Virus record (IMG/VR): IMGVR_UViG_3300045988_146577
Length of the DNA stretch: 64,000 nucleotides
Reading direction: 5' to 3' (one strand)
From: a virus
Lineage: Duplodnaviria > Heunggongvirae > Uroviricota > Caudoviricetes
Shown: piece by piece, positions 15,305 to 63,376 of the stretch
Layout of the letters: the number at the start of each line of letters is the position of its first letter
How positions within the stretch are numbered: position 1 is the stretch's first letter
The notes under the pieces: generated by a model
What the model saw: the letters and a program-made list of their open reading frames with translations, nothing else
Database searches by the model: none
What the model was told of the DNA's origin: nothing
Program-made: the position numbers and the translations under genes

Positions 15305-15325
15305 TTTAAACAAATTGTTTTCTAG
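15305..15325 (-). promoter_or_regulatory. palindromic operator motif A (AAACAA-N-TTGTTT) upstream of helicase gene
   Basis: AAACAAATTGTTTTCT 15-30 nt upstream of start at 15288. Confidence 0.5.
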
Positions 15326-15331
15326 TATTAG

Positions 15332-16081
15332 TTAATTAGATAGGGGATCAATAAACCGCCGTGCTTCTTCCAGTTCTTCTGGAAAGTGGGCGGAAATAAG
15401 GCGCTCTGGAACGATTTCCATTAGCCAGATAGCGGAGAAAATTGCGCGTATGCGCTTGCTGCGGGGGATGGTGCGTAAACGCTCCAGAATCCACTCAAAA
15501 TAGCTTTCCTGAATCGGGTTGAACTGCATGTCTCCCATATGCTTAAAGCTAACGAGAGAGTCATCCAGACGGGTTGTTGCGCGTCTGGCTAATTTCTCTT
15601 CGAATATCTCAATCAGCTCTGGCTGCCACAAATGCTGTGGGCGCGGCAGCTTGTCCCACAGCCGTCGTGCAGCTGCGGAAAGAACGGTGGAGATAAAGTA
15701 GTCGTATGAGCAGCAATAGCGATCCGCAAACTGGCGTGCTTTCCATAGCGACGTTTTATTGGCAGTCGACAACTCCTGATAAGGCAGGCGTTTTAACCCG
15801 GTGGTGAACGGAGCTGTTTCAAAGTGTTCGCGACCGTGCGTCAGCATGATATTTGAGTACTGACGTTTGTATGCCTCCGTAAAAAGACAGGTGGCCATGA
15901 GAGGATGCATGTCGCGGTAATCAAACCACTTCGTCTCGAAGAGTTCAGCCTCGTCTTTACAGCGCGACAAACCAATGTTTTCAGCGACCCACTTGTCCAT
16001 AACAGCGGTATTCCACTCTGTCATGAAGTCGTACTGGTCGTTGTCGATGGTATCGAAAAAGATTTGGCTCATGTGGCTCAC
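15332..16081 (-). CDS. hypothetical protein (replication-module position)
   Basis: 249 aa ORF immediately upstream of helicase gene. Confidence 0.5.
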   Translation of the reverse strand: MSHMSQIFFDTIDNDQYDFMTEWNTAVMDKWVAENIGLSRCKDEAELFETKWFDYRDMHPLMATCLFTEAYKRQYSNIMLTHGREHFETAPFTTGLKRLPYQELSTANKTSLWKARQFADRYCCSYDYFISTVLSAAARRLWDKLPRPQHLWQPELIEIFEEKLARRATTRLDDSLVSFKHMGDMQFNPIQESYFEWILERLRTIPRSKRIRAIFSAIWLMEIVPERLISAHFPEELEEARRFIDPLSN

Positions 16082-16190
16082 CTGGTAGGTAGTTACTTAC
16101 TTATCACAATGAGCGGATGATAGCGACTGGTGGCAGTTTTTGGAAGTGGAAACGGAAGGGAGTTGTTCTGGTGGTGTCTTTTAAAAGACC

Positions 16191-16244
16191 TGCTTCCGTA
16201 TATATTTAATAAGTTACTTATTATTTATATATACAGAAGCAGGC
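16191..16244. repeat. 54-bp AT-rich palindromic element, copy 1 of 2
   Basis: CCTGCTTCCGTATATATTTAATAAGTTACTTATTATTTATATATACAGAAGCAGG; one mismatch to copy at 47801-47855; sits in a divergent intergenic region. Confidence 0.8.
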
Positions 16245-16348
16245 TCCTAATGGATACCAAGAACAACATAATTTGACTCCAACCCCAGATGCTATGTCAT
16301 TGACAGATTTATCAAGGGAGATCATGTTAGAATCAGTGTTTTAGCCTC

Positions 16349-17422
16349 GTGGATATTGTCACCATGCGCATGAATAGACTTCCAGGATATGGCCTTACCG
16401 AACTGGCTTTTTGGCCTCAGCCTAAATATGAACGGAATAAATGGTCGATGTTCTGTCTGAAACTCCGTAATGATGGAACCCTTGCTTGGTATCGGCGATA
16501 TGTTGATCGTGGTATGCCAAACCACGCTTTTGATGACGACTACGATAACTATCCTGAAGCAAGAAAAGCGGCATTAGAGCTGAATAAAAACGTGAGCTTT
16601 GACATTGAAAAACTTCCTCTATCTATGTTTCAAAAGAAGTCATTGCGTTTGAAAGTTGACAAAGCACTCAAAGCCAAATCACGTCTCATGGATGAAGAGC
16701 ATATAATGCTCAACGAAGCAATTAAGGCACACGCCAACGATCCGCGAGTGACATTAAATGAGTTAATAATTAACCCAGATTACGAAACTTTGCGTCAACC
16801 CCTTTTTGACGTGCTAAGCGAGATGCCTTACTTACATTTTGTTTTTCTTCCCAAATTCCAAGTTTCACTTCAACTCGTTGCTCCTAACACTTGGGAATGT
16901 TCATATAACAACAAAGCTAAGACAGCGAAGATCTGCTACCAAGAACGCATAGCCAGAGGTTTTGGTTTATCAGGCGCTGCACATTGGGGAAAAACAAAAG
17001 CGACTATTCGCTCAATGCTTCTGCCGCGTGCTAACCGGTTACTGCAACTCGCCAGCGTAAAAAGAATGCTGGATGAAGCTCTCAGGAATGGGCAAAAGGT
17101 ACTGGTTGTTGGCAACTTTGTTTTCTGGTTTGAGGACAAAAATCAGGTAGGTTGGAGTGTTAAAGTTGCTAGCGAAAGCGAAACCACCTCAAGAGGCAAT
17201 ACGCTCTGGAAAGAAGGAACTATCATTTCAAAAAATCACGGTCGAATTGTCGTGCTGCCGTATACAAAAGAAAACGGTAAACATGTAAAAGGTTATACCA
17301 AGAATGCCCCTAACGACGGCAACGCAATTCCGAGACATAAGGATGAGTATGTCGAGTTGCCCTTTGAAATTTTGGATGGTGACTTGATGTTCAGTCTGTT
17401 CGGTGAGCTTAACTACGAATAG
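16349..17422 (+). CDS. hypothetical protein (lone plus-strand gene)
   Basis: 357 aa ORF with no recognisable motif. Confidence 0.5.
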   Translation: MDIVTMRMNRLPGYGLTELAFWPQPKYERNKWSMFCLKLRNDGTLAWYRRYVDRGMPNHAFDDDYDNYPEARKAALELNKNVSFDIEKLPLSMFQKKSLRLKVDKALKAKSRLMDEEHIMLNEAIKAHANDPRVTLNELIINPDYETLRQPLFDVLSEMPYLHFVFLPKFQVSLQLVAPNTWECSYNNKAKTAKICYQERIARGFGLSGAAHWGKTKATIRSMLLPRANRLLQLASVKRMLDEALRNGQKVLVVGNFVFWFEDKNQVGWSVKVASESETTSRGNTLWKEGTIISKNHGRIVVLPYTKENGKHVKGYTKNAPNDGNAIPRHKDEYVELPFEILDGDLMFSLFGELNYE

Positions 17423-17482
17423 CTTTCATAGAACGAAATATTTCTAAGGCTGTCCAATGCAGACCAGCCTTAGAGATTTATA

Positions 17483-17842
17483 TCAACCTTTCTTCATCAA
17501 CTCTCGTTTGATTTCATCGGTACGCATCGTGACATCGGCAGCGGTGATCGCCTCATTCAATTTCACGATGTCCTCGATTTCCTGCGGTGACTTCTCTGCC
17601 AGATGGAAAATGGCTGCTCGAATCACGTCAGAACGAGTGAACTTCTCGAAGCGAGGGATGAACTTCATCATCTCCAGCAGTTCGAAGTATTCGTCCTCCA
17701 GTGACATTGTGCGGCTTTTAATTTTCTCTTTGCCACGAGTCGGGCGTCCCTGTGGTCTGACTGGTTGGCGCAAAGGAGTTGTGTTCTTAGCCGGTGCATC
17801 AGGCTCTTTGCGCTTTGCTAGGTCACCCATTTTCATGGACAT
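17483..17842 (-). CDS. putative partition centromere-binding protein (ParG/ParB-like small partner of ParA)
   Basis: 119 aa ORF directly downstream of and abutting ParA; basic N-terminus; assigned by position only. Confidence 0.4.
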   Translation of the reverse strand: MSMKMGDLAKRKEPDAPAKNTTPLRQPVRPQGRPTRGKEKIKSRTMSLEDEYFELLEMMKFIPRFEKFTRSDVIRAAIFHLAEKSPQEIEDIVKLNEAITAADVTMRTDEIKRELMKKG

Positions 17843-18510
17843 TATTCTTCTTCCTCCAGACTCAACAGATAATCTACAAATTCTTCAAACTCGGCTTCCG
17901 CCTTTTTGTCGCGCTCGCTACCGGTCATTTCAAAGATAGAACGACCAGACTCTTCCGCATCATCATAGACGTTGCGGTTATATAGATTGACTGGCGCAGA
18001 CTCGATTCCAAACGTCTCAACAATCTCTTTAGCCGCCAGAATGCGAGACACTTGTGATGGCAAAGCCGGGCACTGGTTCATGACCGCGCGGACCTTCACT
18101 TTATCGTTTACATTGCGAACATTGTCGATAATAGGATCGATGTCACGTAAAGATTTCAAATCACGACGCTTAGGACGCAGCGGGATAATGATAACGTCAG
18201 CCATCAGCATCGCTTGTCGCTGAATTTCGGAGTCGAAGCCACCAGCATCTACCACTACAAACTCAGCTCTACCCTGAAGCGATTTTAGGTGCTTAATGAT
18301 GTCATCCTGAACGTATGCAAAAGGAATCAGCTCAAGGTCTTCGTTCTGTCGACGGTCTTCACACCAGCTCGTTGTCGTGCGCTGAATATCTATATCGGTA
18401 ATATAAACCTTCTTCTTCTTTTTGACTTTCATGCAAACGGCAATTTGCTGGGCAACGGTGGATTTGCCAGGCCCGCCCTTTGTGCCGCCAACCACAAAGA
18501 TCTTGGTCAT
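17842..18510 (-). CDS. parA: ParA/Soj-family partition ATPase
   Basis: 222 aa; deviant Walker A GGTKGGPGKST at N-terminus. Confidence 0.8.
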   Translation of the reverse strand: MTKIFVVGGTKGGPGKSTVAQQIAVCMKVKKKKKVYITDIDIQRTTTSWCEDRRQNEDLELIPFAYVQDDIIKHLKSLQGRAEFVVVDAGGFDSEIQRQAMLMADVIIIPLRPKRRDLKSLRDIDPIIDNVRNVNDKVKVRAVMNQCPALPSQVSRILAAKEIVETFGIESAPVNLYNRNVYDDAEESGRSIFEMTGSERDKKAEAEFEEFVDYLLSLEEEE

Positions 18511-18545
18511 TGGAGAGTTCCCTTTGCGTATATAATTATCGTCTG

Positions 18546-18562
18546 AAACAACTTGTTTTCTT
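18546..18562 (-). promoter_or_regulatory. palindromic operator motif A upstream of parA
   Basis: AAACAACTTGTTTTCTT 36-52 nt upstream of parA start. Confidence 0.5.
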
Positions 18563-18828
18563 ATATGTGATATAGCCTAAATGCCTACGGCTGCGGTGTA
18601 AAGGTTAAATGGTAGGTTGTGATTAACAATTGGCAATCATAGCTTGTATTTGTCTGTTGAAAAAAGTAACAATGACCTCTATATTACAAGTACGGTGATA
18701 TGCCGTACACAATTTGATAATGCACACGTAATGGGCTATAGCCTTTTAAAGTAATTTTTGAGTCGAAAACTCAGTTTGAACAGAGGAGATTGATGGCCTT
18801 CCTACATCACGGCCATCAGGAGGAATAC

Positions 18829-19098: not shown

Positions 19099-19105
19099 TT
19101 TACTC

Positions 19106-20047: not shown

Positions 20048-20048
20048 A

Positions 20049-47051: not shown

Positions 47052-47683
47052 TATTCGTCCTCCCCTTCACTTCCATCATCTGTCGCATCAAATTCGCTTA
47101 GAGCTTCTTCTTCCAACGTCTCAAGCAATTCGTCATCGATGATTTCAGGCTCGTCGTCTTCCTGACGTAATTTCGCCACCTGGGAAGGCGTAAGCTCACC
47201 AAATACCAGGTTCGGAATTTCTTCCTCGTCATTTTCCGCATGATCCATGCCCAATGCTTTGGACGAAACTTCAAAGCATTTTGCAAGGGTATTACTGGCT
47301 CTCTGTAAGCTCTTGAGAGAATCCTCAATCGCCCCTAAAGGCTTACCCTCACGTTTGGCCGTAGTGACTTCGACCATCACCATCTGCCCCAACGCATACG
47401 CCCAGCCGTCATAACGTGTACGACGTTCTTCTATCTTTTCCGCACGGGCTTTAGCGCGAAGCTCTGCGTCAGATTTAAGAGACTCACGAACCATCTTCCC
47501 AACAGAGTCCGCGCCTTTCTCTAATCCTCGCTTTTTGAAATGTCTGGAGAGTGTTTCACGACGAATGCCGTACTCTTCCTCCAGCTTTGAGAGTGTATAT
47601 TCGCCTGACGTCCATTTGGCTTCAGCTTCGGCCCACTCCGCTGGTGTCAGGCGAGTTTTTACCTCGTCTTTTTCGACCGTCAT
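47051..47683 (-). CDS. terminase small subunit (HTH)
   Basis: 210 aa; N-terminal HTH-like region, acidic C-terminus; abuts terminase large subunit. Confidence 0.6.
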   Translation of the reverse strand: MTVEKDEVKTRLTPAEWAEAEAKWTSGEYTLSKLEEEYGIRRETLSRHFKKRGLEKGADSVGKMVRESLKSDAELRAKARAEKIEERRTRYDGWAYALGQMVMVEVTTAKREGKPLGAIEDSLKSLQRASNTLAKCFEVSSKALGMDHAENDEEEIPNLVFGELTPSQVAKLRQEDDEPEIIDDELLETLEEEALSEFDATDDGSEGEDE

Positions 47684-47723
47684 AGATCCCTCTAAAACAC
47701 ACAGAGCGCGTCCATGCGCTCTA

Positions 47724-47764
47724 AAACAACTTGTTTACTGCATCTTCTAACCAACTTGTTTTCT
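47724..47764 (-). promoter_or_regulatory. operator motif A, two half-site copies upstream of terminase small subunit
   Basis: AAACAACTTGTTT and CCAACTTGTTTTCT 40-80 nt upstream of start at 47683. Confidence 0.5.
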
Positions 47765-47879: not shown

Positions 47880-48146
47880 TTACATCACCAGTAACTTCGC
47901 TTTGGCTCGACCTAAAGTGGTTAACCCAAGAGTTCGGCGGTGATAGCGATTGTCACTGCGTTGGCGCGTATGCCCTTTCTCCACCAGCCCCTTTTTTATC
48001 AGAGCGCGAATTGAGAACTGGATACTTTGCTTGGTTGTCTTGTACGGCAAAACTTCAAGCAATTCGTCCAGATCAAGTAGATGACCTCGCTCATAACCGA
48101 GATTGAGCGTTTTGATGATGTCCTTTTGTTTATCGGTTAACGTCAT
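47880..48146 (-). CDS. small winged-HTH-like DNA-binding protein (last gene of ParB-ATPase-GNAT operon)
   Basis: 88 aa basic protein; 10 nt downstream of GNAT-fold gene. Confidence 0.5.
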   Translation of the reverse strand: MTLTDKQKDIIKTLNLGYERGHLLDLDELLEVLPYKTTKQSIQFSIRALIKKGLVEKGHTRQRSDNRYHRRTLGLTTLGRAKAKLLVM

Positions 48147-49046: not shown

Positions 49047-49708
49047 AAATGAACCTCATCATGACTACCATTGTGATATTCCACCTTCACGCGTTCTTTG
49101 TAGTGCTTGGTGATCTGCATATCCGGGCGCAGCGCGTTCTTCAGGTCTTCGTGAGTCGTCGCCACCATTACCGTTGCACCAACCTTTCGAGCGGCACGCT
49201 GGAGGTTAGATGCCACAACCTGAGCGGTTACACGGTCTAGAACAGCACCGAACTCGTCAGCAGCCCACACTTTAGCGCCTGACTCAATCAGTTTGGCAAT
49301 CTTGAGACGATATTTCTGACCGTCTGACATTTCAGAAGGCTTGCGAACAAACAGATATGCATCGTTCAGACCAGCCATAGATAACAACCCAAGCGCATCG
49401 CTGGTCGTTTTGCCCAACTGATCGATGACGTTAACCTCATTATCGAAGGTAAAATCATCGATGGAGGCTACAGACAGCCCTTCATCCTTCATCTGTCGTT
49501 GCAACTCGCGCAGCACAACGGATTTGCCGGAACCGGATTGGCCGGTGATGTACACCACATCGCCCTGCTTCACTTCCAGCTCCAGATTGTCGTAAAGCGT
49601 CCACTCTTTTTCGTCCAGGCCAAGCCCGAACGACTCAGCGATTTCCAACGTGCGAGTGGTTTTATTTACGCGTGTCTGAAACGATACGTTGATGATGTAT
49701 TTGCTCAT
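49043..49708 (-). CDS. ABC-type ATPase (nucleotide-binding domain only)
   Basis: 221 aa; Walker A GQSGSGKS, signature-like MSDGQKYRL, Walker B VWAADEFG, H-loop-like TTHEDL. Confidence 0.7.
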   Translation of the reverse strand: MSKYIINVSFQTRVNKTTRTLEIAESFGLGLDEKEWTLYDNLELEVKQGDVVYITGQSGSGKSVVLRELQRQMKDEGLSVASIDDFTFDNEVNVIDQLGKTTSDALGLLSMAGLNDAYLFVRKPSEMSDGQKYRLKIAKLIESGAKVWAADEFGAVLDRVTAQVVASNLQRAARKVGATVMVATTHEDLKNALRPDMQITKHYKERVKVEYHNGSHDEVHL

Positions 49709-50406
49709 GCAGCCATCTCCCCGGAAGAGATCTTCTCCGCATATGCCACAAATGCGTCTACCCCGCTTTCTCCCGTCATTTCTTCCATGTGGGCAAGCAA
49801 ATCACCAACAACAATGGCAGAGCCAGCAGGGAGCGTTTTAAAGCCCAATACGTCGACAACACGTACTTCTTCCGCTGCAACTTCACGACTGATCTCGGTG
49901 TGTTCATCCTTCTGTCGTTTAGTTTCTTCGCCAAGATCGATAACTAGCGAGTCGGTGTCCATTTCTTCTGTCATGCTGCCAACGAGAACATTCAACTCAC
50001 GCTCTTCAAAGCCGAAAACCTCGATATCGTCCAGAACAAGCGACTCAAGCTCTTTCTGTAGCTTAATTGCATCGTAATCAATGCTGGCAAGTCGGTTATC
50101 TTCAAGGCGCTTCGCACGAACCTCGTCATCACTGAGATCATCGCGAACAATAACCGGTACGCGCTCAAGTCCAGCAAAAATTGCAGCCTCACGGCGGCCG
50201 TGGCCAGTAATAATTACGTCGTTCTTATCGACCGTAATTGGCTGGTCAAATCCGCGCTTTTTAATGGCTGCGGCCAGATCTCGGATCTGCTGTTCATCAT
50301 GCTTTTTGGCATTCATCTCATAGGGAATAAGATCTGCCGGGTCGCGATATACGATTTCAAACTTTTTGGTCATTACATACGCTCCTTGTAGTAGTCGACC
50401 AGCCAC
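49705..50406 (-). CDS. ParB N-terminal-domain (ParB/Srx-like) protein, paralog 1
   Basis: 233 aa; ParB-box-like ITGHGRREAA; no obvious HTH; acidic C-terminus. Confidence 0.65.
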   Translation of the reverse strand: MAGRLLQGAYVMTKKFEIVYRDPADLIPYEMNAKKHDEQQIRDLAAAIKKRGFDQPITVDKNDVIITGHGRREAAIFAGLERVPVIVRDDLSDDEVRAKRLEDNRLASIDYDAIKLQKELESLVLDDIEVFGFEERELNVLVGSMTEEMDTDSLVIDLGEETKRQKDEHTEISREVAAEEVRVVDVLGFKTLPAGSAIVVGDLLAHMEEMTGESGVDAFVAYAEKISSGEMAA

Positions 50407-51071
50407 ACCAGAGCCTCACCAGCGTTCTCCATTTCATTACCGGTGTTAATAGCCTGCTCTTTGATGATGTTTTTTATGGTTTCTGCAACACGATCTGACG
50501 CATCGAAAGTTACTTTGAAGCGCATGGTCTGATGTTCCGCACCCACACGTTCGGTTTTCTCTCGTTTGTCGGTATCGACAGGCTCATCACTACCACGAGA
50601 CAACGCCTCCAGTGCTTCAAGGTCGATTGCCGCCTCTTTTGCTAAAACCATCGAGATTTCGTCGTCATACGGGGCGATTTCAGACAGTTGATAGTCAAGT
50701 TCTGACTGAATTTCTTCAATGAAGCGTTGCAATGCGATTTGGTCGTCTTCACCGTATCGCTCGTTGTCCACCAGTGACATCTGTTTAGCTACGACATCGC
50801 TAATTTTGCCCACAGAAAGCACCGGAACCGTTGAAATTCCTTGCTCAATAGCAGCACGCCAGCGATGTTCGCCGCCGAGGATTTCAAAAAATCCATCTTC
50901 AAGTTCACGAGCCAAAATTGGCTTAAAAAAGCCCAATTTTTCGATAGAACCTTTCAGTTTTTCAAAATTCTGCGCACCAACCGAATTGGTGTTCCAGGTA
51001 TTCGGGCGAAGGTTGGCAACATCAACCTGCAAAATCGTGATTTTTACATCCATTTTATTGCTACAATCCAC
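50373..51071 (-). CDS. ParB N-terminal-domain (ParB/Srx-like) protein, paralog 2
   Basis: 232 aa; classic ParB box ILGGEHRWRAAIEQG; first gene of operon. Confidence 0.7.
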   Translation of the reverse strand: MDCSNKMDVKITILQVDVANLRPNTWNTNSVGAQNFEKLKGSIEKLGFFKPILARELEDGFFEILGGEHRWRAAIEQGISTVPVLSVGKISDVVAKQMSLVDNERYGEDDQIALQRFIEEIQSELDYQLSEIAPYDDEISMVLAKEAAIDLEALEALSRGSDEPVDTDKREKTERVGAEHQTMRFKVTFDASDRVAETIKNIIKEQAINTGNEMENAGEALVWLVDYYKERM

Positions 51072-52697: not shown

Positions 52698-52976
52698 ATG
52701 AGCGAAAAGAAAACAACTTATTGCCAAGTGGCATTGTCTGATAAGGCCAATGAAAAACTTGGAAAATTCCAAATAAAACTCAAAGAGAAAAAAATCAAGA
52801 TGTCTAAGGCTGAAGTTATCAATGCCATTCTGGAGACGATGACTATGGCTGAATTTGACAAAGTCACATCTGCCGTTGGGGTTTCCGCTAAGACGCGTGA
52901 GAAAATCATGCGCATCTATGAAAACTCCAATATGACAAAAAAAGATCTAGAGGAAATACTGAGCAGGTTGCCGTAA
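52698..52976 (+). CDS. hypothetical protein
   Basis: 92 aa Lys-rich ORF 3 nt after helicase stop. Confidence 0.45.
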   Translation: MSEKKTTYCQVALSDKANEKLGKFQIKLKEKKIKMSKAEVINAILETMTMAEFDKVTSAVGVSAKTREKIMRIYENSNMTKKDLEEILSRLP

Positions 52977-54895: not shown

Positions 54896-55417
54896 ATGGT
54901 TAAAGACATCACCTACGGCATACCGGCTGAAGTATGGCCGCGAGACTACGAACATGCTGAACGCACCTTGCTCTTCTGGCGGAGAGCTAAATTTCCTGTA
55001 AGAGTCACTCTCGAAGACGGCCAAGTGTTTTGCATGTACGTTTATGGTCTCATGTCATCTCGTAACAAAGTTGACCTTTGTCCAACTCCATTTGACAAAG
55101 AAAATCGTATAAGGCTCCCACTTGAGCGCATTAGCACAATTGAATCAGGCGTAATTGATGGCATTGATTACGATTTCAAAGGGAGACTAACAATACACCC
55201 TGACTATGTAGACAACCAGCCATCACGTCGTGACTTTTTTAAGATATGTCGTCAGGCTTACCAAAACGGCAAATCTATAAGGGTCTACATGGCAGACGGT
55301 CGCGAAATTGAGGGAACGTCAGATGGCGTTGACGCCTGTCTAGTCACACTTAAGTTGGAAGACGGTAGAAAAATACTTATTTTCTTCGATTGGGTTGAAC
55401 GAATCCTTCCGTTTTAG
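54896..55417 (+). CDS. hypothetical protein
   Basis: 173 aa ORF. Confidence 0.45.
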   Translation: MVKDITYGIPAEVWPRDYEHAERTLLFWRRAKFPVRVTLEDGQVFCMYVYGLMSSRNKVDLCPTPFDKENRIRLPLERISTIESGVIDGIDYDFKGRLTIHPDYVDNQPSRRDFFKICRQAYQNGKSIRVYMADGREIEGTSDGVDACLVTLKLEDGRKILIFFDWVERILPF

Positions 55418-56967: not shown

Positions 56968-56991
56968 CGTTTCCAATACTTCCACCATAAC

Positions 56992-57424: not shown

Positions 57425-57545
57425 TGCAGCCGTTTCCCGAAAAAATCCTGGCCGTTTCCCGTCGGCTCATGAATACGTTCCTCGCCGTTTCTGAAAATTT
57501 CCCTGCGGCAGCTGGTGGCTATATAGAAAGGGCCGTTTCTGGCCC
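57425..57545. repeat. iteron cluster 1 (4 copies of GCCGTTTCC/TG-like motif)
   Basis: AGCCGTTTCCCG, GGCCGTTTCCCG, CGCCGTTTCTG, GGCCGTTTCTGG spaced 20-50 nt. Confidence 0.6.
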
Positions 57546-57554
57546 TCTTCTCAG

Positions 57555-58037
57555 TTACACGCCATCAAGGATGTGGATGCGGTTGCTTGCGTATACATTC
57601 AGCATAAAGTTAGCGCAAAACAGTTTCCATGTATCAACGCCAGCGGTATACGTAATGTTTTTGCATTTAATCGCATTGTTGGCGATCCGCATCCCCTGCG
57701 ATACTGCTTCATCGTCGGAAAATTTGAACGACGATTGAGTTTTAATCCAGACAGAAATCTGCGTAGCGAACTCAATCAGCTTGGACTGGCAGAATCGCCC
57801 GGAGCGCACCGGAAAGACGAACGTTCCGAATCCAGAATTTACCACATACGCTTTCTCAAATACCCGCGAGTAACGACGATTGCCAATGATGTCGCGTGCA
57901 ATAATGCATTTTTCTTGTGCTGACAGTTCTACCGTCTCATTGTCGCGCCATGCACCAAGTACTCGTTTTTCAATGTCAGAGAACGTTACAGCGATATTGC
58001 CATGTGCGGGTGCGTTTACAGTAGCGATAAAATTCAT
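57555..58037 (-). CDS. hypothetical protein
   Basis: 160 aa ORF; motif-A promoter-operator immediately upstream. Confidence 0.5.
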   Translation of the reverse strand: MNFIATVNAPAHGNIAVTFSDIEKRVLGAWRDNETVELSAQEKCIIARDIIGNRRYSRVFEKAYVVNSGFGTFVFPVRSGRFCQSKLIEFATQISVWIKTQSSFKFSDDEAVSQGMRIANNAIKCKNITYTAGVDTWKLFCANFMLNVYASNRIHILDGV

Positions 58038-58054
58038 GATTAATTCCTTATCGT

Positions 58055-58092
58055 AAATAACAAATTGTTTTCTTGTTGGTGTTAATTATCGT
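58055..58092 (-). promoter_or_regulatory. promoter-operator motif A (GATAAT -10-like box plus AACAAATTGTT palindrome)
   Basis: minus-strand CGATAATTAACACCAACAAGAAAACAATTTGTT just upstream of start at 58037. Confidence 0.55.
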
Positions 58093-58241
58093 TGTACGAA
58101 TAAGGCGTCAAAGTGGAAAGTTGCGGTAGCCGGACGGGAACAGGTGGGTTTGTCGGTTGCCTGGAGGTAAGAGGTTGGTGTTTTTAGCCTGCGGGAAACA
58201 GGATGGTCATTTAAGGCCACCAGCATTGGTGGCCTTACTCT

Positions 58242-58528
58242 TTAGTGGAGCAGACCGATGTCGATGGTATCCCCTGAATCATCCACACGGATCATCAGCA
58301 TGGCGAAGGCGTTTAGTGGATAGCTTGCGTGCCATTCAGGGAAGCGGTCATCTCGCATGAAGTCGGCAATGTCGTAAACGCAGCCCTCAAAGTGGAAGAA
58401 TCGCGTGCTTACCTGCTCGTCATATTCCACATGATCCATTTCTTGCTGTTCTGTTTCCGGCAAGTCCAGCCATGATTCAAGGAATACATTTTGTGCTTTA
58501 GGGGTAATGGTGAAATCAGTCATGAGCA
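58242..58528 (-). CDS. small acidic protein
   Basis: Start re-assigned to ATG near 58528 after SD GAGGAT (track start 58655 lies upstream of the promoter motif); about 95 aa. Confidence 0.5.
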
Positions 58529-58542
58529 TATCCTCACTGCGT

Positions 58543-58575
58543 AAACATATTGTTTTCTTGTTGGTGTAATTATCG
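58543..58575 (-). promoter_or_regulatory. promoter-operator motif A
   Basis: minus-strand TGCGATAATTACACCAACAAGAAAACAATATGTTT (extended -10-like TGnGATAAT). Confidence 0.55.
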
Positions 58576-58858
58576 CAGTGTAGATAAGGCATAAAAGAAG
58601 TTAATACAGGCTGAATACACAAGAAAGGTTCTGGAAGTTGATAGCCAGGTTTCAAACTAACCTTCGGTTATTAAAAGTCATTTAAGACCACCAATGCTGG
58701 TGGCCTTAATAATTATCGCCCGATTACGCTAAGGATCTTTTCCTCAACTGATTTGTTGTTGCGACTAAACTGCCTTGCGTATCTGATGACAGAAGAGGCG
58801 TTTTGCTTTCTGACCATCTCGACTCTTTCCTTCAGGCGTTTCTTGAAATCGCCCATAT

Positions 58859-59233
58859 TTACCACCAGGCGCAGAAGGTCAGTCTGTTATTGTGAAAGTC
58901 GTGGTTCTTAATCAGATCTTCCACAAGCTCTTTCAACTCCCCCACATCATGCCAGTAACCTTCATCGTACTCCTGACTGCCGAAGAAAAAACCTTCCCGG
59001 GTAGGCAAGTACTCTTCGCAATTACTTTCGTTTATGTGCATCAAATGAGCCTTCAGAAAACAAATGTCATTCATCGTTAATTCTAAAAGCTCACAATTTT
59101 CGACTTCACCTACGTTGCGCTCCATCCACCCAACGAGCGCATTGAACTTACGGAAGTAAGCAACCTGCTTTCTGGATGCCTCGTTATTCAGATCGTTTTT
59201 AGGCTGTGTCTCGATATAGATATCAAGTCCCAT
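58859..59233 (-). CDS. hypothetical protein
   Basis: Start re-assigned to ATG near 59233 after SD AAGGAAA; about 124 aa. Confidence 0.45.
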   Translation of the reverse strand: MGLDIYIETQPKNDLNNEASRKQVAYFRKFNALVGWMERNVGEVENCELLELTMNDICFLKAHLMHINESNCEEYLPTREGFFFGSQEYDEGYWHDVGELKELVEDLIKNHDFHNNRLTFCAWW

Positions 59234-59310
59234 GATGGTTTCCTTATTAAGTTGCTTCAGTGAAATCATTTTCACAAATCAGATAAGGCAGAAAACAAAT
59301 TGTTATCGGG

Positions 59311-59339
59311 CATAATAAAATGGCGCGGTTTGCGCGCCA
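59311..59339 (-). terminator. rho-independent terminator
   Basis: GGCGCG/CGCGCC hairpin followed by U-run on minus strand, just after the stop at 59351. Confidence 0.5.
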
Positions 59340-59350
59340 TTTAAAGAGGA

Positions 59351-59746
59351 TTAAGCGAATACGCTTTCAGGGATTAAGGTGTCGGCAGGAATGCCAGAGG
59401 TAATGCGCAGACCGTACTGGCCAATCCAGGTGGTGCTGGTGTTCAGGCTGGAGGCGAATACGGTGTTAACCATATTCATCATGGTTTCAAACACCTCTTC
59501 ATCAACCTGGCGGAAGTAGTTCTCGATTTTCAGCAGCAGAGGGTCAGTTGCATCGAGAATGGACTGGTATTGAGTCGCGTACTCGCCGCCGGAGGCATCA
59601 CCTTTACGCACGATCGTACTGGCCTGGACTTCGGCACCAGTTTCGGTGTTGTACGTAACAACGGTGATTTTTGCCACATTCTTACCTTCGGCGGTTTCAG
59701 AGGCATAGTAAACATCAACTGTCAGTTTTTCGCGTTTAACGGTCAT
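59351..59746 (-). CDS. hypothetical protein
   Basis: Start re-assigned to ATG near 59746 after SD GGAGAG; about 131 aa; TAAGTATGTACTTA palindrome upstream. Confidence 0.5.
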   Translation of the reverse strand: MTVKREKLTVDVYYASETAEGKNVAKITVVTYNTETGAEVQASTIVRKGDASGGEYATQYQSILDATDPLLLKIENYFRQVDEEVFETMMNMVNTVFASSLNTSTTWIGQYGLRITSGIPADTLIPESVFA

Positions 59747-59810
59747 TTCACTCTCCGTAGTGTTTTGGTTATTTTTATATTCTATGATCGTAAGTATGTA
59801 CTTACAATAC

Positions 59811-59837
59811 AAAAAAGCCCCGTAAGGATGGCGGGGC
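59811..59837 (-). terminator. rho-independent terminator
   Basis: GCCCCGCCATCCTTACGGGGC hairpin + U6 on minus strand. Confidence 0.65.
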
Positions 59838-59872
59838 TGTCGTACTGTCGACTAATTACCACTTGCACATTA

Positions 59873-60187
59873 TCAGGCTATTGCCATCACTGATGCTCTC
59901 TGAATTTCTTGCTGGGCCACGCGGTTAACTTCCATCAAAGCCAGTTCGAGCTGATGTTCCGGCCACATTCTTTGAAATGCCATCCAGCCTTTTCCACGCT
60001 GGCGACGAACATTCATTACATAACGAGTAAAGGTGTTTTTATCGAAAGACACCGCTGTTTCACGGAACAGACGAATAGAGGTTCCATTGGCAACGATGTC
60101 CAGCAAAGTTAATTGAGCAACCAGCGCAGGCTTCTCTTTTCTCTTCTGGTCTTTGTCCAGACCAAGAACCAATGATTTTTTCATCAC
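59873..60187 (-). CDS. small basic protein, possible DNA-binding regulator
   Basis: Start re-assigned to ATG near 60187 after SD GGAG; about 104 aa, Lys/Arg-rich. Confidence 0.45.
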   Translation of the reverse strand: MMKKSLVLGLDKDQKRKEKPALVAQLTLLDIVANGTSIRLFRETAVSFDKNTFTRYVMNVRRQRGKGWMAFQRMWPEHQLELALMEVNRVAQQEIQRASVMAIA

Positions 60188-60195
60188 AACTCCGT

Positions 60196-60211
60196 AAACA
60201 ACTTGTTTTCT
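60196..60211 (-). promoter_or_regulatory. operator motif A
   Basis: AAACAACTTGTTTTCT just upstream of start at 60187. Confidence 0.5.
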
Positions 60212-60337
60212 CAATGGCGTAAATAATACCAGTAAGAAAACGGCTACAAAGCATATTGATCAGGTGCATGAGCGATATGCAGGTTCTTCCCTGCGGCTAT
60301 AGAGAAATTAAGCCAGCAATGCTGGCTTTGGTTGGGA

Positions 60338-60667
60338 TTACTCGAATACTTCAAGAAACTCCTGAACGTCCCAATGCTGGACGAGGTGAAGATAGACCTT
60401 AGAAATCACGTCATTTTCGCTATCGCATGTGAAGTAGTACTTCTGGCTGCGGTTGTATGTGTCCACACAAAATTCGCTCATATCCATAAAGTCAGCATCT
60501 TCACCCATGTCGCAAATCATCAAAGCAGGTGCGTCATCACGAGTCATCAGCTCAAGCACCCACCGCGAATTGATCAGAGTGGAAGACCAACCTTCCAGCT
60601 CATAGAACTGGTCAAACTCTTTTTGAGTCAATTTCTTGATTTGGTTGATGTCGATATGTGCAAACAT
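60338..60667 (-). CDS. small acidic protein
   Basis: Start re-assigned to ATG near 60667 after SD AAGGA; about 109 aa; Asp/Glu-rich. Confidence 0.5.
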   Translation of the reverse strand: MFAHIDINQIKKLTQKEFDQFYELEGWSSTLINSRWVLELMTRDDAPALMICDMGEDADFMDMSEFCVDTYNRSQKYYFTCDSENDVISKVYLHLVQHWDVQEFLEVFE

Positions 60668-60679
60668 AAAGCAATCCTT

Positions 60680-60712
60680 AAACAACATGTTTTCTTGTTG
60701 GTGTTATTATCG
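60680..60712 (-). promoter_or_regulatory. promoter-operator motif A
   Basis: minus-strand TGCGATAATAACACCAACAAGAAAACATGTTGTTT directly upstream of SD and ATG. Confidence 0.55.
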
Positions 60713-60994
60713 CAATAACGCACAGGCGAAAAAGGATTTTATTCCGGTGAATGTGGTTTTGGCAGTGAGTTTTCAGGTTCAGTACCGAGTACACTTTTTA
60801 CATTATTCTGATTTAGTGGCCGAAGGTGGCTGGTGGGCAGAATAATCATCTCCCCGAAAACCTACTGAAATCGATTGTGACCCGTTGGCTGTCTGGCACA
60901 ATTACGCTGTAACTGGGCATTCAGAGGGAATCCAGCGGTAAGTAAGTTCGCCTGCACGTGAGCGCCTCTCTTCTTCCCGCACATTACAGGTGGG

Positions 60995-61185
60995 TAGCCG
61001 CAACTCTCCCTCTCGCTATACCGGTACGCCGCCGTTCCTGAACCGGCATCGAGCCTTTTCCCGAAATCCACACAGGCAACTCGACCGTTTCCCTGAAAAC
61101 CTCCAGCCGTTCCCCGAAGGCAACCCAGCCGTTTCTGTAGCGGGATGCAGCCTTTTCCCTGTATGGACCGAAGGCTGACCGTAGG
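60995..61185. repeat. iteron cluster 2 (6 copies of CCGTTTCC-like motif)
   Basis: CGCCGTTCCTG, AGCCTTTTCCCG, GACCGTTTCCCTG, AGCCGTTCCCCG, AGCCGTTTCTG, AGCCTTTTCCCTG at ~20-30 nt spacing. Confidence 0.6.
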
Positions 61186-61225
61186 GGTGTTACGGGGGGG
61201 TAAAATCAGGAGTTGAATAAATACG

Positions 61226-61248
61226 AAAAAGGAGGCGACACCCCTCCT
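61226..61248 (-). terminator. terminator-like hairpin ending the transcript of the GT-skewed region
   Basis: AGGAGG/CCTCCT stem with 7-nt loop followed by U5 on minus strand. Confidence 0.4.
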
Positions 61249-61249
61249 T

Positions 61250-62110
61250 CCCTCCCCACTTATACATACCTGTCTTGTTCGCTATACATGTTGTGTTTTC
61301 TTCGTGTTTTATCTGTCTCAACCTCTCTATAGGCGTTAATGCTCACTCCTTCCAGAACGTTCTATACGGCGACTATTTCTGTTGGTGAATTGGGTGTGTT
61401 GTTTTCTCTGTCGGTGTATGTAGTTTCATTAGTTTTGCGGTGGTTCTTCTATGGGGTGTTCTCGTCGTTTTGGTGATTGTTCTTCTCCGTGTATGGAGTA
61501 ATGACAGGTGGGCGATTGCTTTCGTTATTGTGTTTGAGTTGTTTGTCTGGAGTGTGAAAGGCTTTTGTAGTTATTCGTGTATTGGGTAATGGCGTTTCCC
61601 GTGATTGTTATGTTTCGTGTCTTTTGGGATTGAGAGAAACCTTGCGGTTACAGGCTTCGTTGGGGTTTCAGTGATTCTGATGTTTCTTCGCTGTTTGGGT
61701 AATGGCGTGTCGTGAGTATCGCGCGTATGGAAGTTTCGAATTGCCTGTGAAAGTTAGGTTGGTTGTCCGGTAGCCTGGGAAGAAGAGGTGGGTCTTTTCG
61801 GTAGCCTGCCATAAAGAGGTTGGTTGTTTTGGGAATGGCATATGTGTTATTTAGTTGTTTTGTTATGCCTGAAAATAAGTTGTTTATATGGTTATGTAAC
61901 GCAACGGGAACGATTTTGAGCGTGTGTTTTTGTTGGTAGTGTGTTGGGTCGTCTGTGGTGAAAATTGGACGCTGTGGCGCTGTCTGCTGCGTAGAATTAC
62001 GGGTATAAGCTGTGATGTGTGGAAACGTCAATTTTTTAGACCAAATCGGGTGAAAGCGTTGATGTTTCGTTGATCTGTTATTCAGTTGTTTTCTTGATTG
62101 TATAAACAAC
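61250..62110 (-). ncRNA. candidate long non-coding transcript from GT-skewed (plus strand) region; transcript would be CA-rich and G-poor
   Basis: ~860 bp with strong G+T skew on plus strand, internal short repeats, no credible ORF; promoter-like motif near 62080-62110 and terminator at 61226-61248, both minus-strand. Confidence 0.3.
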
Positions 62111-62219
62111 TATAACTTATTGATATTTAAGGATGTGATTGCGGGTATGGAAGGGGAGTAGTGGCGATCAACGGATTCTTATAGAAAAGAATCAAATTGT
62201 GACCGCCATTATCAATGTT

Positions 62220-62954
62220 TTACTTAGTTTTGTTTAGCAGAGAGAGAATTTCATCACTAATTTCACTCGCCTGTTTGATAGCCAATGCAGTTACCTCTTC
62301 TATGGTTGGTGACTGTTGATGCTCATGTTTGGTTTCAGTTATGACAATGTGTTCTTCACCTGAATTTGCGCATAGTGCCGCATTGACTATAAGGTTTGAG
62401 TAAGAATTTAGCAGAGCACTGTTGATAAACGCTTTCACGGTATTACTGTCTGCACCAAATACATCTTTTCTGACCGCTTCAGCCTCACAGCGAACCCCTG
62501 CAGCAACATCGTGAAGAACATGTATGGCCTTGGAGCTTGTTTGTTCACAGTACTCAATCATTATTGTCGAATTGTTCTGTTCAACAAATGATCTGATGCC
62601 TGACGATTCACCCATAGCATCGAAGGCAGCGTGACTCGCACTAGTAGAGATATCTTCATAGAGTTCTTCATCGCTATCTTTTTCTTCAGGTGTCGAGGTG
62701 TCTTCATCGTCGTAATAGATATTGCCTTTAATCAGTGTTTTGGATACTTGATATAAACAATAAGAGACAAGATTTAAGCATTGGATTTTAGCTGTATTGT
62801 CCTTTGTCGCCTCGCTCTTCAGTTCTTTCGCTTCTTCAGTAAGGCTGTTGATAAGACTTTGTATTTTTTCCAACGCGTTAGGTGCACACTCCGCGTTGTC
62901 CATAAAGAATTTATAACCAGTTCCAGGGATTTCTAAACTTTTCAACTTTTTCAT
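62220..62954 (-). CDS. hypothetical protein
   Basis: 244 aa ORF, acidic. Confidence 0.5.
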   Translation of the reverse strand: MKKLKSLEIPGTGYKFFMDNAECAPNALEKIQSLINSLTEEAKELKSEATKDNTAKIQCLNLVSYCLYQVSKTLIKGNIYYDDEDTSTPEEKDSDEELYEDISTSASHAAFDAMGESSGIRSFVEQNNSTIMIEYCEQTSSKAIHVLHDVAAGVRCEAEAVRKDVFGADSNTVKAFINSALLNSYSNLIVNAALCANSGEEHIVITETKHEHQQSPTIEEVTALAIKQASEISDEILSLLNKTK

Positions 62955-62999
62955 TTCTTTGATAATCCTAAAAACAAACTACCAATGCTTTAATATCTG

Positions 63000-63296
63000 T
63001 TACCAGTTCCAGCACTCAAGCCCTTCAACGACCGGTGCACCACAATCAAAATGTACAGAGTCAAAGCCTACATCAAGTACTTTCTGAATGTTAGCAATCG
63101 CGCCTTCGGATATACCATATCGACGCAAGTCGTCTTTCCAGACATCATCCTGTAACCCGGCGTGGACAATACAACCGCCATCAATTTGTGAAACCCAATC
63201 CAGCTCATTGCTTGCGATCATGAATCGGCGAGCATCTTCCTCTGATGTATGAGATGAGCTGATCAATGCCACCTGGTAGGCTTGGGTAATGTTCAA
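63000..63296 (-). CDS. hypothetical protein
   Basis: Start re-assigned to ATG near 63296 after SD GGAGTGG; about 98 aa; two motif-A copies upstream. Confidence 0.5.
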   Translation of the reverse strand: MNITQAYQVALISSSHTSEEDARRFMIASNELDWVSQIDGGCIVHAGLQDDVWKDDLRRYGISEGAIANIQKVLDVGFDSVHFDCGAPVVEGLECWNW

Positions 63297-63310
63297 CATT
63301 TCAACCACTC

Positions 63311-63376
63311 CAAAACAAGTTGTTTTCTTATGTGGTTTATTATCTCCATCAACAAAAGGCAGAAAACAAATTGTTT
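63311..63376 (-). promoter_or_regulatory. two copies of operator motif A
   Basis: AAAACAAGTTGTTTTCTT and AGAAAACAAATTGTTTT. Confidence 0.5.

What the first reader, a model, noticed from the sequence alone, without database searches (positions are those of the whole stretch)
15305..63376. Repeated promoter-operator motif A (AAACAA-N-TTGTTT + TTGTTGGTGTTAATTATCG) on early and accessory genes
At least ten copies of a perfect short palindrome AAACAA-N-TTGTTT lie just upstream of minus-strand start codons: 15308, 18546, 47724/47751, 58059, 58543, 59290, 60196, 60680, 63311 and 63360. Several are fused to a conserved extended -10-like block (TGCGATAAT...). The palindrome overlaps the predicted transcription start, which is where a repressor would act, implying a single regulator controls helicase, parA, the terminase operon and the small-gene region.
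Basis: seen in the sequence. Interest (0 to 1): 0.55.

Follow-up and report, generated by a model that had tools for sequence, protein, structure and literature searches.

The report
Repeated palindromic operator in phage-plasmid
A 13-base palindrome (AAACAA-N-TTGTTT) sits on a dozen promoters of this SSU5-type phage-plasmid and its relatives, marking one shared negative control circuit whose regulator protein is still unidentified.

Summary
There are 6 perfect copies (0.03 expected) plus 7 with one mismatch. All 13 are intergenic, and 12 lie 8-65 nt upstream of minus-strand start codons.

The window is an SSU5/pHCM2/pMT1/pLF82-type phage-plasmid. The same palindrome is the only over-represented 6-N-6 palindrome in SSU5, Klebsiella pJN2-26, Cyrano, pMT1 and more distant relatives. 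It stays fixed while its flanks diverge.

Most copies start 4-15 nt downstream of a sigma-70-like -10 element, covering roughly -2 to +20. Some instead overlap the -35. Published RNA-seq of an LF82 lysogen shows most motif-bearing genes at background.

Best reading (0.45): a duplex-DNA operator for an element-encoded, two-fold-symmetric repressor.

Main rival (0.3): a 5'-leader RNA operator for the FljA-family protein at 54896-55417. I predict this protein to be a tandem Hfq/Sm fold. It co-occurs with the motif across clades.

It is absent from SSU5, and its own promoter carries a different palindrome. No regulator is proven. I found no paper describing this motif.

The parts
4682..4694 (-). 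Palindrome copy (1 mismatch), 19 nt upstream of the CobT-like gene 2554-4662
   Evidence: The orthologous site is perfect in SSU5, pMT1 and Kp while the flanks diverge.
15308..15320 (-). Perfect palindrome, 19 nt upstream of the DnaB-like helicase 13948-15288. It starts only 4 nt after the conserved TAnnAT -10.
18546..18558 (-). Perfect palindrome, 35 nt upstream of parA 17842-18510. Predicted promoter is TTTACA-17-TAGGCT.
   Evidence: A half-site remnant ATAAGAAAACAAT is kept upstream of parA in the Moellerella and Pectobacterium outgroups.
47724..47761 (-). Double site (47749-47761 with 1 mismatch, 47724-47736 perfect; centres 25 bp apart) upstream of the small terminase gene 47051-47683
47694..47722 (-). 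Terminator-like hairpin AGAGCGC-atggac-GCGCTCT followed by GTGTGTTTT, lying in the terS leader between the double site and the start codon
   Evidence: Sequence; leader fold of -28.4 kcal/mol that includes this hairpin; conserved in SSU5, Kp and pMT1
58058..58091 (-). Promoter-operator module: -10 GATAAT (58085-58090), AC-rich spacer, AAGA, palindrome 58058-58070 (1 mismatch). It is 20 nt upstream of gene 57555-58037.
58543..58577 (-). Promoter-operator module: TGCGATAAT (58569-58577) and palindrome 58543-58555 (1 mismatch). It is 19 nt upstream of gene 58242-58523.
59293..59305 (-). Palindrome (1 mismatch) of the '-35 type'. It follows a terminator hairpin and abuts TCTGCC, about 20 nt before a TGTGAAAAT -10, and is 59 nt upstream of gene 58859-59233.
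60196..60208 (-). Perfect palindrome, 8 nt upstream of gene 59873-60187
60680..60711 (-). Promoter-operator module: GATAAT (60706-60711) and palindrome 60680-60692 (1 mismatch). It is 12 nt upstream of gene 60338-60667.
61873..61885 (-). Palindrome (1 mismatch) at the head of a CA-rich non-coding stretch. Distant relatives have a double site here.
63313..63376 (-). Two perfect palindromes bracketing one promoter, with centres 51 bp apart. 63364-63376 lies over the -35, GATAAT is at 63339-63344, and 63313-63325 lies at about +7 to +19. The pair is upstream of gene 63000-63299.
54896..55417 (+). FljA-family protein (candidate trans-factor). It is encoded antisense to the lytic genes and is predicted to be a tandem Hfq/Sm fold.
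   Evidence: Pfam PF03614, E 3.5e-80. AF2 pLDDT 85, pTM 0.82, two helix+5-strand units. Top 50 PDB matches are all Hfq. Present in 835 plasmid records. Absent from the motif-less Moellerella and Pectobacterium relatives.
47880..48146 (-). 88-aa winged-helix-like protein (candidate trans-factor), encoded immediately upstream of the terS double site
   Evidence: 84-89% identical in SSU5, Kp and pMT1, with an invariant putative recognition helix. Weak LexA_DNA_bind and Sta1/Lrs14 hits. It is also present in the motif-less outgroups.
17483..17842 (-). ParG/omega-like partner of ParA (candidate trans-factor). It has a basic N-terminal tail and a ribbon-helix-helix-like pattern: IKSRTMSLEDE ... FTRSDVIRAAI.
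   Evidence: Sequence. The strand is conserved in orthologues that are 45-52% identical. Expressed in the lysogen (CYRAN_29 = 89). It is also present in the motif-less outgroups.

Best explanation
The 13-bp palindrome AAACAA-N-TTGTTT is the operator of a global negative-control circuit specific to the enterobacterial SSU5/pHCM2/pMT1/pLF82 clade of phage-plasmids.

It is built into sigma-70-type promoters in two positions. In most it covers about -2 to +20, just downstream of the -10. In some it overlaps the -35. Three promoters carry two copies, 25 or 51 bp apart.

A two-fold-symmetric protein encoded by the element binds the duplex DNA and blocks RNA polymerase binding or escape. This keeps replication genes (helicase, nrdB), the CobT-like gene, accessory small genes and the terminase operon silent in the plasmid (lysogenic) state, and keeps parA throttled.

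Shown: the motif, its enrichment, its placement, its conservation and the low expression of most target genes.

Inferred: duplex-DNA binding, repression, and the identity of the protein. The protein is not the HTH at 5225-5611. The candidates are the FljA-family protein 54896-55417, the 88-aa winged-helix protein 47880-48146 and the ParG-like protein 17483-17842.
For: - Enrichment: 6 perfect copies against 0.03 expected. All 13 copies with <=1 mismatch are intergenic, p = 4e-11.
- Dominance: it is the only over-represented 6-N-6 palindrome in five related genomes, with 11, 11, 9, 8 and 3 perfect copies against <=2 for any other.
- Conservation: orthologous promoters keep the palindrome while the flanks and the central base change. 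It is unchanged in relatives whose proteins are only 56-59% identical.
- Whole-unit selection: only the full 13-mer is selected, and the core alone is at chance.
- Symmetric conservation: among 50 sites, positions 2/12 and 5/9 are invariant or nearly so, 6/8 and 1/13 are loosest, and the centre is free.
- Copies outside the leader: several overlap the -35, outside the 5' leader of the gene they precede (63364, 59293, and at least 8 in relatives).
- Weak RNA hairpin: it is only -0.7 kcal/mol, and variant sites show no compensatory changes.
- Expression: in the LF82 lysogen, background is 9.8. Most motif genes score 5.7-12.9 despite TGCGATAAT-type -10 elements, while neighbouring genes without the motif are expressed. 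Examples are CYRAN_101 at 7.5 against CYRAN_102 at 57 (PMC9928086).
Against: - No DNA-binding protein has been tied to the site.
- The winged-helix, ParG-like, RHH-like (52698-52976) and HTH proteins all exist in the syntenic Moellerella and Pectobacterium relatives, which have no promoter copies of the motif.
- The regulator-like gene whose distribution tracks the motif (alongside a few unannotated small genes) is the FljA-family gene. Its predicted fold is RNA-binding.
- The 5' flank is asymmetric in leader copies: AGA plus an A/C-rich, G-poor tract. A symmetric DNA binder does not explain this.
- parA carries a perfect site but is expressed about 5-fold over background, helicase about 2-fold and CYRAN_111 about 2.6-fold.
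- TSS positions are predicted, not measured.
- Most prophage genes are silent in the lysogen anyway, so the RNA-seq discriminates weakly.
Confidence: 0.45

Rival explanations
1. The motif is an RNA-level operator. In the 5' leader it reads AGA-AAACAA-N-UUGUUU, preceded by an A/C-rich, ARN-like tract. The element's FljA-family tandem-Sm protein (54896-55417) binds it, blocks ribosome loading and promotes mRNA decay. This is how Salmonella FljA acts on the fliC leader (established knowledge: Bonifield & Hughes 2003; Yamamoto & Kutsukake 2006; Aldridge et al. 2006; cited from memory, papers not held).
For: - The protein is a full-length PF03614 member (E 3.5e-80). It is confidently predicted as two Hfq-like domains.
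- Single-domain relatives in the outgroup plasmids hit both Pfam Hfq and Flag1_repress.
- The gene is universal in the clade, with 835 plasmid records. These include elements of non-flagellated Klebsiella and Y. pestis, so its target is probably in the element itself.
- It is encoded antisense to the lytic genes and is expressed in lysogens (CYRAN_114, log2 7-8 in most conditions).
- The syntenic Moellerella and Pectobacterium relatives lack both the tandem gene and the motif, but keep the other candidate regulators.
- Twelve of 13 sites lie 8-65 nt before a start codon.
- The fliC leader of Salmonella/Citrobacter has CAAGTTGT 19 nt before the ATG.
- The leader of gene 57555-58037 is the best of 66 window leaders when aligned to the fliC leader. 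Motif leaders score higher overall, p = 0.024.
Against: - Strict reverse-complement symmetry of a 13-mer is not expected for single-strand recognition by an Sm protein.
- The one-base gap leaves no room for the two halves to reach opposite faces of a ring.
- The hairpin is nearly unstable and shows no compensatory changes.
- Copies over the -35 are outside the leader unless there is read-through.
- The fliC site matches only 9 of 12 positions and scores poorly with the motif PWM. The leader similarity disappears when the core is masked.
- The co-occurrence rests on one clade contrast. Other small genes (CYRAN_37, 62, 106) share the same distribution.
Confidence: 0.3
2. The sites are binding sites of the partition system's centromere-binding protein, the ParG/omega-like protein 17483-17842. 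This protein would double as a global repressor, in the manner of KorB on RK2 (12 dispersed 13-bp palindromes) or omega on pSM19035. That would couple plasmid segregation to silencing of the phage genes.
For: - A perfect site sits on the parA promoter, as expected for par autoregulation.
- parA is the only promoter that keeps a remnant half-site in the outgroups.
- The protein has a ParG-like layout.
- Its putative DNA-reading strand IKSRT(M/V)S is conserved down to 45% identity, which matches an invariant operator.
- The operon is expressed in the lysogen at 50-89.
- The gene is present in 797 plasmid records.
Against: - No Pfam or PDB match supports the RHH assignment.
- Type Ib centromeres are normally arrays of repeats, not single palindromes.
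- The outgroup plasmids keep the protein with the same strand, but have no full sites anywhere.
- pMT1 keeps the sites without this protein. This is weak evidence, because pMT1 is nearly identical to SSU5 in the shared regions.
Confidence: 0.12
3. There is no dedicated regulator. On this reading the palindrome is either a conserved part of a mobile promoter cassette, spread by recombination like the promoter-stem-loop modules of T4-type phages, or a site for a host factor.
For: - The accessory-region promoters are clearly paralogous modules that share -35, -10 and spacer. They flank variable small genes and terminators.
- The gene content between modules differs among relatives.
Against: - Unrelated promoters (helicase, parA, cobT-like, terS, nrdB) share only the palindrome plus AGA, not the cassette.
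- The palindrome is held fixed while the flanks drift.
- No E. coli regulator known to me has this consensus (own knowledge, not tested).
- All pMT1 sites lie on the SSU5-type backbone and none on the rest of the plasmid.
Confidence: 0.08

Closest known systems
Phage-plasmid P1: C1 repressor with more than 14 dispersed operators
   Same: Both are phage-plasmids in which one operator sequence is scattered over many promoters. In both, the operators control replication (a DnaB-type helicase; ban in P1), accessory and late-function genes in the plasmid-prophage state.
   Different: P1 operators are asymmetric 17-mers (ATTGCTCTAATAAATTT) bound by monomeric C1. Here the site is a 13-bp perfect palindrome. 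No C1 homologue was seen in the annotations, and no dedicated search was made. The P1 details are from my own knowledge.
RK2/IncP KorB operators (OB, TTTAGCSGCTAAA)
   Same: Both have the same 6-N-6, 13-bp palindrome architecture. Both have roughly a dozen or more copies on one replicon, and some copies abut the -35. In both there is a link to a ParA partition system.
   Different: The sequences differ. KorB is a ParB-family HTH protein. The two ParB-N proteins here (49705-51053) are silent in the lysogen, at the floor value. Most sites here lie downstream of the -10 rather than upstream of the -35.
Salmonella FljA and the fliC 5' leader
   Same: The element encodes a full-length FljA-family protein. 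Its candidate target lies between promoter and Shine-Dalgarno sequence, as in fliC. The fliC leader shares the core CAAGTTGT at the same distance from the ATG.
   Different: FljA has one known target, whereas here there are about 16 promoters per genome. The fliC site lacks the AAA/TTT arms that are required here. The proteins are about 40% identical. Binding here is untested.
pSM19035 omega and TP228 ParG (ribbon-helix-helix centromere-binding global or auto-repressors)
   Same: A small ParA is followed by a small protein with a basic tail and an RHH-like pattern. A site lies on the parA promoter.
   Different: Omega and ParG sites are arrays of 7-8-bp repeats. Here there is a single 13-bp palindrome. 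RHH membership is not supported by any profile hit.

Membership tests
   No copy with <=2 mismatches lies in 4974-5224. That promoter instead carries GGTAAGCACTTACC (5180-5193), which is conserved in the Kp and pMT1 orthologous regions.
   SSU5 has 20 sites but no homologue of the HTH, the integrase or the cro-like gene. The motif-less Moellerella and Pectobacterium elements do have the HTH.
P1 C1-type dispersed operator network | Many copies of one operator on promoters across a phage-plasmid | tested here: met
   13 copies in the window and 18 in Cyrano, on about 15 promoters
P1 C1-type dispersed operator network | Asymmetric 17-bp C1 operator consensus and a C1 homologue | tested here: not met
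   The site is a symmetric 13-mer. No gene is annotated or recognised as C1-like in the annotations read. No dedicated C1 search was run.
KorB/OB global regulon (IncP) | 13-bp 6-N-6 palindrome dispersed over the replicon, some copies next to the -35 | tested here: met
KorB/OB global regulon (IncP) | A ParB-family protein is the binder and is expressed in the plasmid state | tested here: inconclusive
   Two ParB-N proteins are present, but their mRNAs are at floor/background in the lysogen (CYRAN_119 and 120). Binding is not testable here.
FljA-fliC type leader control | An FljA-family (PF03614) protein is encoded | tested here: met
   E 3.5e-80 over the full length; tandem Hfq-like model
FljA-fliC type leader control | The target lies in the 5' leader close to the ribosome-binding site | tested here: met
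   For 9 genes the nearest copy lies 8-40 nt before the start codon. The leader assignment rests on predicted -10 elements.
FljA-fliC type leader control | The target resembles the fliC leader element | tested here: inconclusive
   Core CAAGTTGT is shared at the same distance from the ATG. Only 9 of 12 positions match and the PWM score is low. The 57555-58037 leader ranks 1 of 66, with p = 0.024 for motif versus non-motif leaders, an effect due only to the core.
FljA-fliC type leader control | The protein binds the RNA and blocks translation | not testable with these tools
   Needs RNA EMSA, toeprinting, and translational versus transcriptional fusions
Type Ib partition operator (ParG/omega-like) | A small ParA is followed by a small RHH protein with a flexible basic tail | tested here: inconclusive
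   The sequence pattern fits and is conserved, but there is no Pfam or PDB hit and no structure was predicted.
Type Ib partition operator (ParG/omega-like) | Array of repeated sites upstream of parA | tested here: not met
   A single palindrome lies upstream of parA
Self-folding RNA element (nut/boxB-like hairpin) | Stable hairpin maintained by compensatory changes | tested here: not met
   -0.7 kcal/mol and not formed in most leader folds. Variant sites carry single, mostly pair-breaking changes and no double changes.

The most novel reading that the evidence does not exclude
The palindrome-bearing leaders form a phage-plasmid-wide post-transcriptional regulon run by a tandem-Sm (double Hfq-like) FljA-family protein. 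Lysogenic silencing of about 16 operons in SSU5-type phage-plasmids would then be enforced on mRNA rather than on DNA. The Salmonella phase-variation repressor FljA, with its fliC leader target, would be a domesticated offshoot of this phage system.
Probability: 0.3. Interest if true: 0.8.

Novelty: new member of a known kind. Interest (0 to 1): 0.55.

Why it matters
SSU5-type phage-plasmids are among the commonest extrachromosomal elements of Enterobacteriaceae. They include pHCM2 of S. Typhi, pMT1 of Y. pestis and pLF82/Cyrano of AIEC, and more than 800 PLSDB records match this backbone. How they keep about 100 kb of lytic genes quiet in the plasmid state is not known.

A single invariant 13-bp site on about 16 promoters gives a concrete handle. 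It defines the regulon. It gives a bait for pulling down the regulator. It also gives a one-site target for reporter and derepression experiments.

The side result that the FljA family is a tandem Hfq-like fold, with single-domain relatives in sister plasmids, makes a long-standing question directly testable: how FljA recognises the fliC leader, and where it came from.

Tried and rejected
- **HTH 5225-5611 as binder: rejected.** It is absent from SSU5, its own promoter carries a different palindrome, and it is present in the motif-less outgroups.
- **RHH-like protein 52698-52976 (lysogen-expressed): unlikely.** The AF2 model was poor (pLDDT 54). The putative DNA-facing strand residues vary (Y/H/S/F and A/Q/K) while the motif is invariant. 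It is also present in the outgroups.
- **Small basic protein 59873-60187: no evidence.** It has no domain in Pfam, PHROGs or NCBIfam. The only link is adjacency and the clade-specific distribution.
- **Covariation test: not possible.** I looked for relatives with an altered palindrome in order to map the binder. The motif is identical in every relative that has it.
- **Pattern scan of IMG/VR: uninformative.** It returned mostly single chance hits plus SSU5-like contigs.
- **Homologue searches for the RHH-like and winged-helix proteins: no independent context.** They returned only SSU5-type relatives.
- **Rfam: only three tRNAs.**
- **Literature:** no paper in the library reports this motif or links FljA to Sm/Hfq. 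The primary FljA papers and a 2026 preprint on an SSU5-type phage-plasmid could not be read.
- **Strict PWM match of the fliC leader: failed**.
- **Absence of genes from pMT1: set aside as uninformative**, because pMT1 is nearly identical to SSU5 in the shared regions.
- **Host-factor consensus sequences:** none that I recalled matched. This was not tested.

Full report
**What the window is.** Bases 40000-64000 are 98.9% identical to E. coli plasmid pEco_M21170_105. They are about 98% identical to pLF82 (phage Cyrano) and about 80% identical to Klebsiella phage-plasmids and to Salmonella phage SSU5. The window is therefore part of an SSU5/pHCM2/pMT1-type phage-plasmid. Nearly all of its genes lie on the minus strand.

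**Checking the observation.**
- Perfect AAACAANTTGTTT occurs 6 times, against 0.03 expected.
- Seven further copies have one mismatch.
Some coordinates are a few bases off, and two copies (4682, 61873) were missed.
- All 13 copies are intergenic, although 84% of the window is coding (p = 4e-11). Twelve lie 8-65 nt upstream of a minus-strand start.
- The 7-nt core CAANTTG is at chance frequency. It either carries the full AAA/TTT arms (10 copies) or random flanks (13 copies), so the selected unit is the whole 13-mer.
- The 19-mer quoted in the title occurs once.
- A looser module, (TGC)GATAAT - 13 nt AC-rich spacer ending in AAGA - palindrome, is shared by four accessory-gene promoters.

**Anatomy.**
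- *Leader-type copies.* Read on the minus strand, most copies have the form -10, then 4-15 nt, then AGA, then the palindrome, then 8-40 nt, then ATG. This places the palindrome at roughly -2 to +20 of the predicted promoter.
- *-35-type copies.* A second class (63364, 59293, and at least 8 in relatives) lies upstream. It follows a terminator hairpin and runs into TTGTTT-TCTGCC, the -35 region of the next promoter.
- *Double sites.* Gene 63000-63299 has one copy of each class, 51 bp apart. The terS promoter has two copies 25 bp apart, followed by a terminator-like hairpin in the leader.
- *Asymmetric flank.* The 5' flank of leader-type copies is asymmetric: AGA plus an A/C-rich, G-poor tract.

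**Conservation.**
- The palindrome is the only over-represented 6-N-6 palindrome in Klebsiella pJN2-26 (11 perfect copies), SSU5 (11), Cyrano (9), pEco (8) and pMT1 (3). No other palindrome exceeds 2 copies.
- In orthologous promoters (helicase, parA, cobT-like, terS and two small genes) the 13-mer is kept while the flanks and the central base change.
- It is unchanged in relatives whose proteins are only 56-59% identical, and in a Klebsiella element with a 52%-identical ParA partner.
- In pMT1 all copies lie on the SSU5-type backbone.
- Over the whole Cyrano genome, 18 copies mark about 15 promoters: terS, parA, helicase, the cobT-like gene, nrdB, tciA and a series of small genes.
- Two syntenic 108-kb relatives from other families have no promoter copies and no other dominant palindrome. 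These are Moellerella pW18-2-b and Pectobacterium Drgb1. Only a half-site, ATAAGAAAACAAT, remains upstream of parA in both.

**Expression.** Published RNA-seq of the LF82 lysogen (PMC9928086, S1 Table) has a Cyrano background of 9.8.
- Genes behind the motif score 5.7-12.9.
- The exceptions are parA (50), helicase (21) and CYRAN_111 (25.5).
- Adjacent genes without the motif can be expressed. Examples are CYRAN_102 at 57 next to CYRAN_101 at 7.5, and CYRAN_109 at 58 next to CYRAN_108 at 5.7.
- Since several of these promoters have TGCGATAAT-type extended -10 elements, something holds them down. But most prophage genes are silent in any case, so this is supportive rather than decisive.

**Who binds? 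Candidates that lose support.**
- *HTH protein 5225-5611.* It sits in an integrase module that SSU5 lacks, yet SSU5 has 20 sites. Its cI/cro-like control region has no copy of the motif. Its own promoter carries a different palindrome, GGTAAGyACTTACC, which is conserved in three genera.
- *RHH-like protein 52698-52976.* It is expressed in the lysogen, but its putative DNA-reading residues vary while the motif does not. Its AF2 model was poor.

**Who binds? Candidates that remain.**
- *88-aa winged-helix-like protein (47880-48146).* It lies just upstream of the terS double site and is 84-89% conserved, with an invariant helix 3.
- *ParA partner (17483-17842).* It looks like a ParG/omega-type protein, and its strand IKSRT(M/V)S is conserved down to 45% identity.
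- Both of these, and also the HTH and the RHH-like protein, are present in the motif-less Moellerella and Pectobacterium plasmids.
- *FljA-family gene (54896-55417).* It is the one regulator-like gene whose distribution follows the motif. The Pfam PF03614 match has E 3.5e-80, and it is found in 835 plasmid records. A few small unannotated genes share this distribution.

**The FljA-family protein.**
- AlphaFold2 gives a confident model (pLDDT 85, pTM 0.82) made of two helix+five-strand units.
- The 50 best PDB matches are all Hfq.
- The outgroup plasmids carry instead a 73-76-aa single-domain protein upstream of the helicase. It hits both Pfam Hfq and the N-terminal half of Flag1_repress.
- This fits what is established for Salmonella FljA, which binds the fliC mRNA leader and blocks translation. 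That statement is cited from memory because the papers are not held.
- The gene is conserved in elements of non-flagellated hosts (Klebsiella, Y. pestis), so its target is probably in the element itself.
- The fliC leader, read from ten genomes, contains CAAGTTGT 19 nt before the ATG.
- The leader of gene 57555-58037 aligns to the fliC leader better than any other of 66 window leaders. Motif leaders score higher as a group, p = 0.024. However, the effect is due only to the core, and the fliC site lacks the arms that are required here.

**Weighing DNA against RNA.**

For duplex DNA and a symmetric binder:
- The site has exact dyad symmetry with a symmetric conservation profile.
- Both arms are required.
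- Some copies lie over the -35.
- The RNA hairpin is worth only -0.7 kcal/mol and has no compensatory changes.

For RNA:
- The best phyletic candidate has an RNA-binding fold.
- The sites lie in leaders next to ribosome-binding sites.
- The 5' flank is asymmetric and A/C-rich.

I put the DNA operator at 0.45 and the FljA-type leader operator at 0.30. A partition-protein (KorB/omega-like) reading gets 0.12, and 'no dedicated regulator, or a host factor' gets 0.08. The identity of the binder is open under all of them.

**Comparison with known systems.** Functionally this looks most like the dispersed C1 operators of phage-plasmid P1, and like the 13-bp KorB operators of RK2. It is not a member of either: the sequence differs, and so do the symmetry (P1) and the likely binder. 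Membership of an FljA-fliC-type system is met for the protein and for the position of the site. It is inconclusive for sequence and untestable for binding. I found no report of this motif.

**Verdict.** The feature is real and conserved across the clade. It is a new member of a known kind, a global operator regulon on a phage-plasmid. One open and more novel possibility is control at RNA level by a tandem-Sm protein.

Noticed in passing
window 54896-55417 (+); L154:48354-48575; L151:22046-22276: The FljA family (Pfam Flag1_repress) is predicted with high confidence to be two tandem Hfq/Sm domains. Sister plasmids from Pectobacterium and Moellerella carry a single-domain 73-76-aa version that hits both Pfam Hfq and Flag1_repress. 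No paper in the library links FljA with Sm/Hfq.
   Followed up: partly
window 5180-5193 (+), upstream of the HTH gene 5225-5611: A perfect palindrome GGTAAGCACTTACC follows a TTTACA...TAATAT promoter. It is conserved upstream of the orthologous HTH genes in Klebsiella pJN2-26 and pMT1. It is probably the auto-operator of that repressor, and is distinct from motif A.
   Followed up: partly
window 61061-61158 and 57437-57540 (minus strand): Two clusters of GGRAAMGGY repeats bracket the accessory small-gene region. Four copies have an exact 22-bp period (61092-61158). They look like iterons or a centromere, and are possible sites for the ParG-like protein or RepA.
   Followed up: no
window about 61230-61900 (minus strand): A stretch of about 650 nt is non-coding and CA-rich (A 40%, C 28%, G 16%, T 16%). 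It starts behind a palindrome-bearing promoter (61873; a double site in distant relatives) and ends at a strong terminator (61226-61252). It has GCCATT(A/C)CCCA repeats. It is silent in the LF82 lysogen. It could be an unstructured RNA such as a protein sponge. There is no Rfam match.
   Followed up: no
window 47694-47722 (minus strand): The terS leader contains a conserved terminator-like hairpin plus U-tract between the promoter and the start codon. The 88-aa winged-helix gene lies just upstream. The layout recalls lambda Q-pR'-tR' and suggests that late genes also need antitermination.
   Followed up: partly
window 57500-63400: Each small accessory gene has its own paralogous promoter-operator module upstream and a terminator hairpin downstream. 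The modules are conserved, but the genes between them differ among relatives. This looks like cassette shuffling by recombination between modules, similar to T4 promoter-stem-loop elements.
   Followed up: no
window 17483-17842 (-): The gene annotated in Cyrano as 'RelE/ParE putative toxin' reads instead like the ParG/omega-type partner of the type Ib ParA upstream. It has a basic N-terminal tail and a ribbon-helix-helix pattern.
   Followed up: partly
window 13893-13905: A weak copy (2 mismatches; AAACAACTTTTCT on the minus strand) lies about 90 nt upstream of the primase gene start at 13800. It may be a degenerate operator.
   Followed up: no
window 8143-8386 (-) and 63461-64000 (-): The element carries three tRNA genes and a methionyl-tRNA synthetase gene (metG). 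Annotated relatives also carry dnaE, nrdAB, thyX and a trimethoprim-resistant dfrA51.
   Followed up: no
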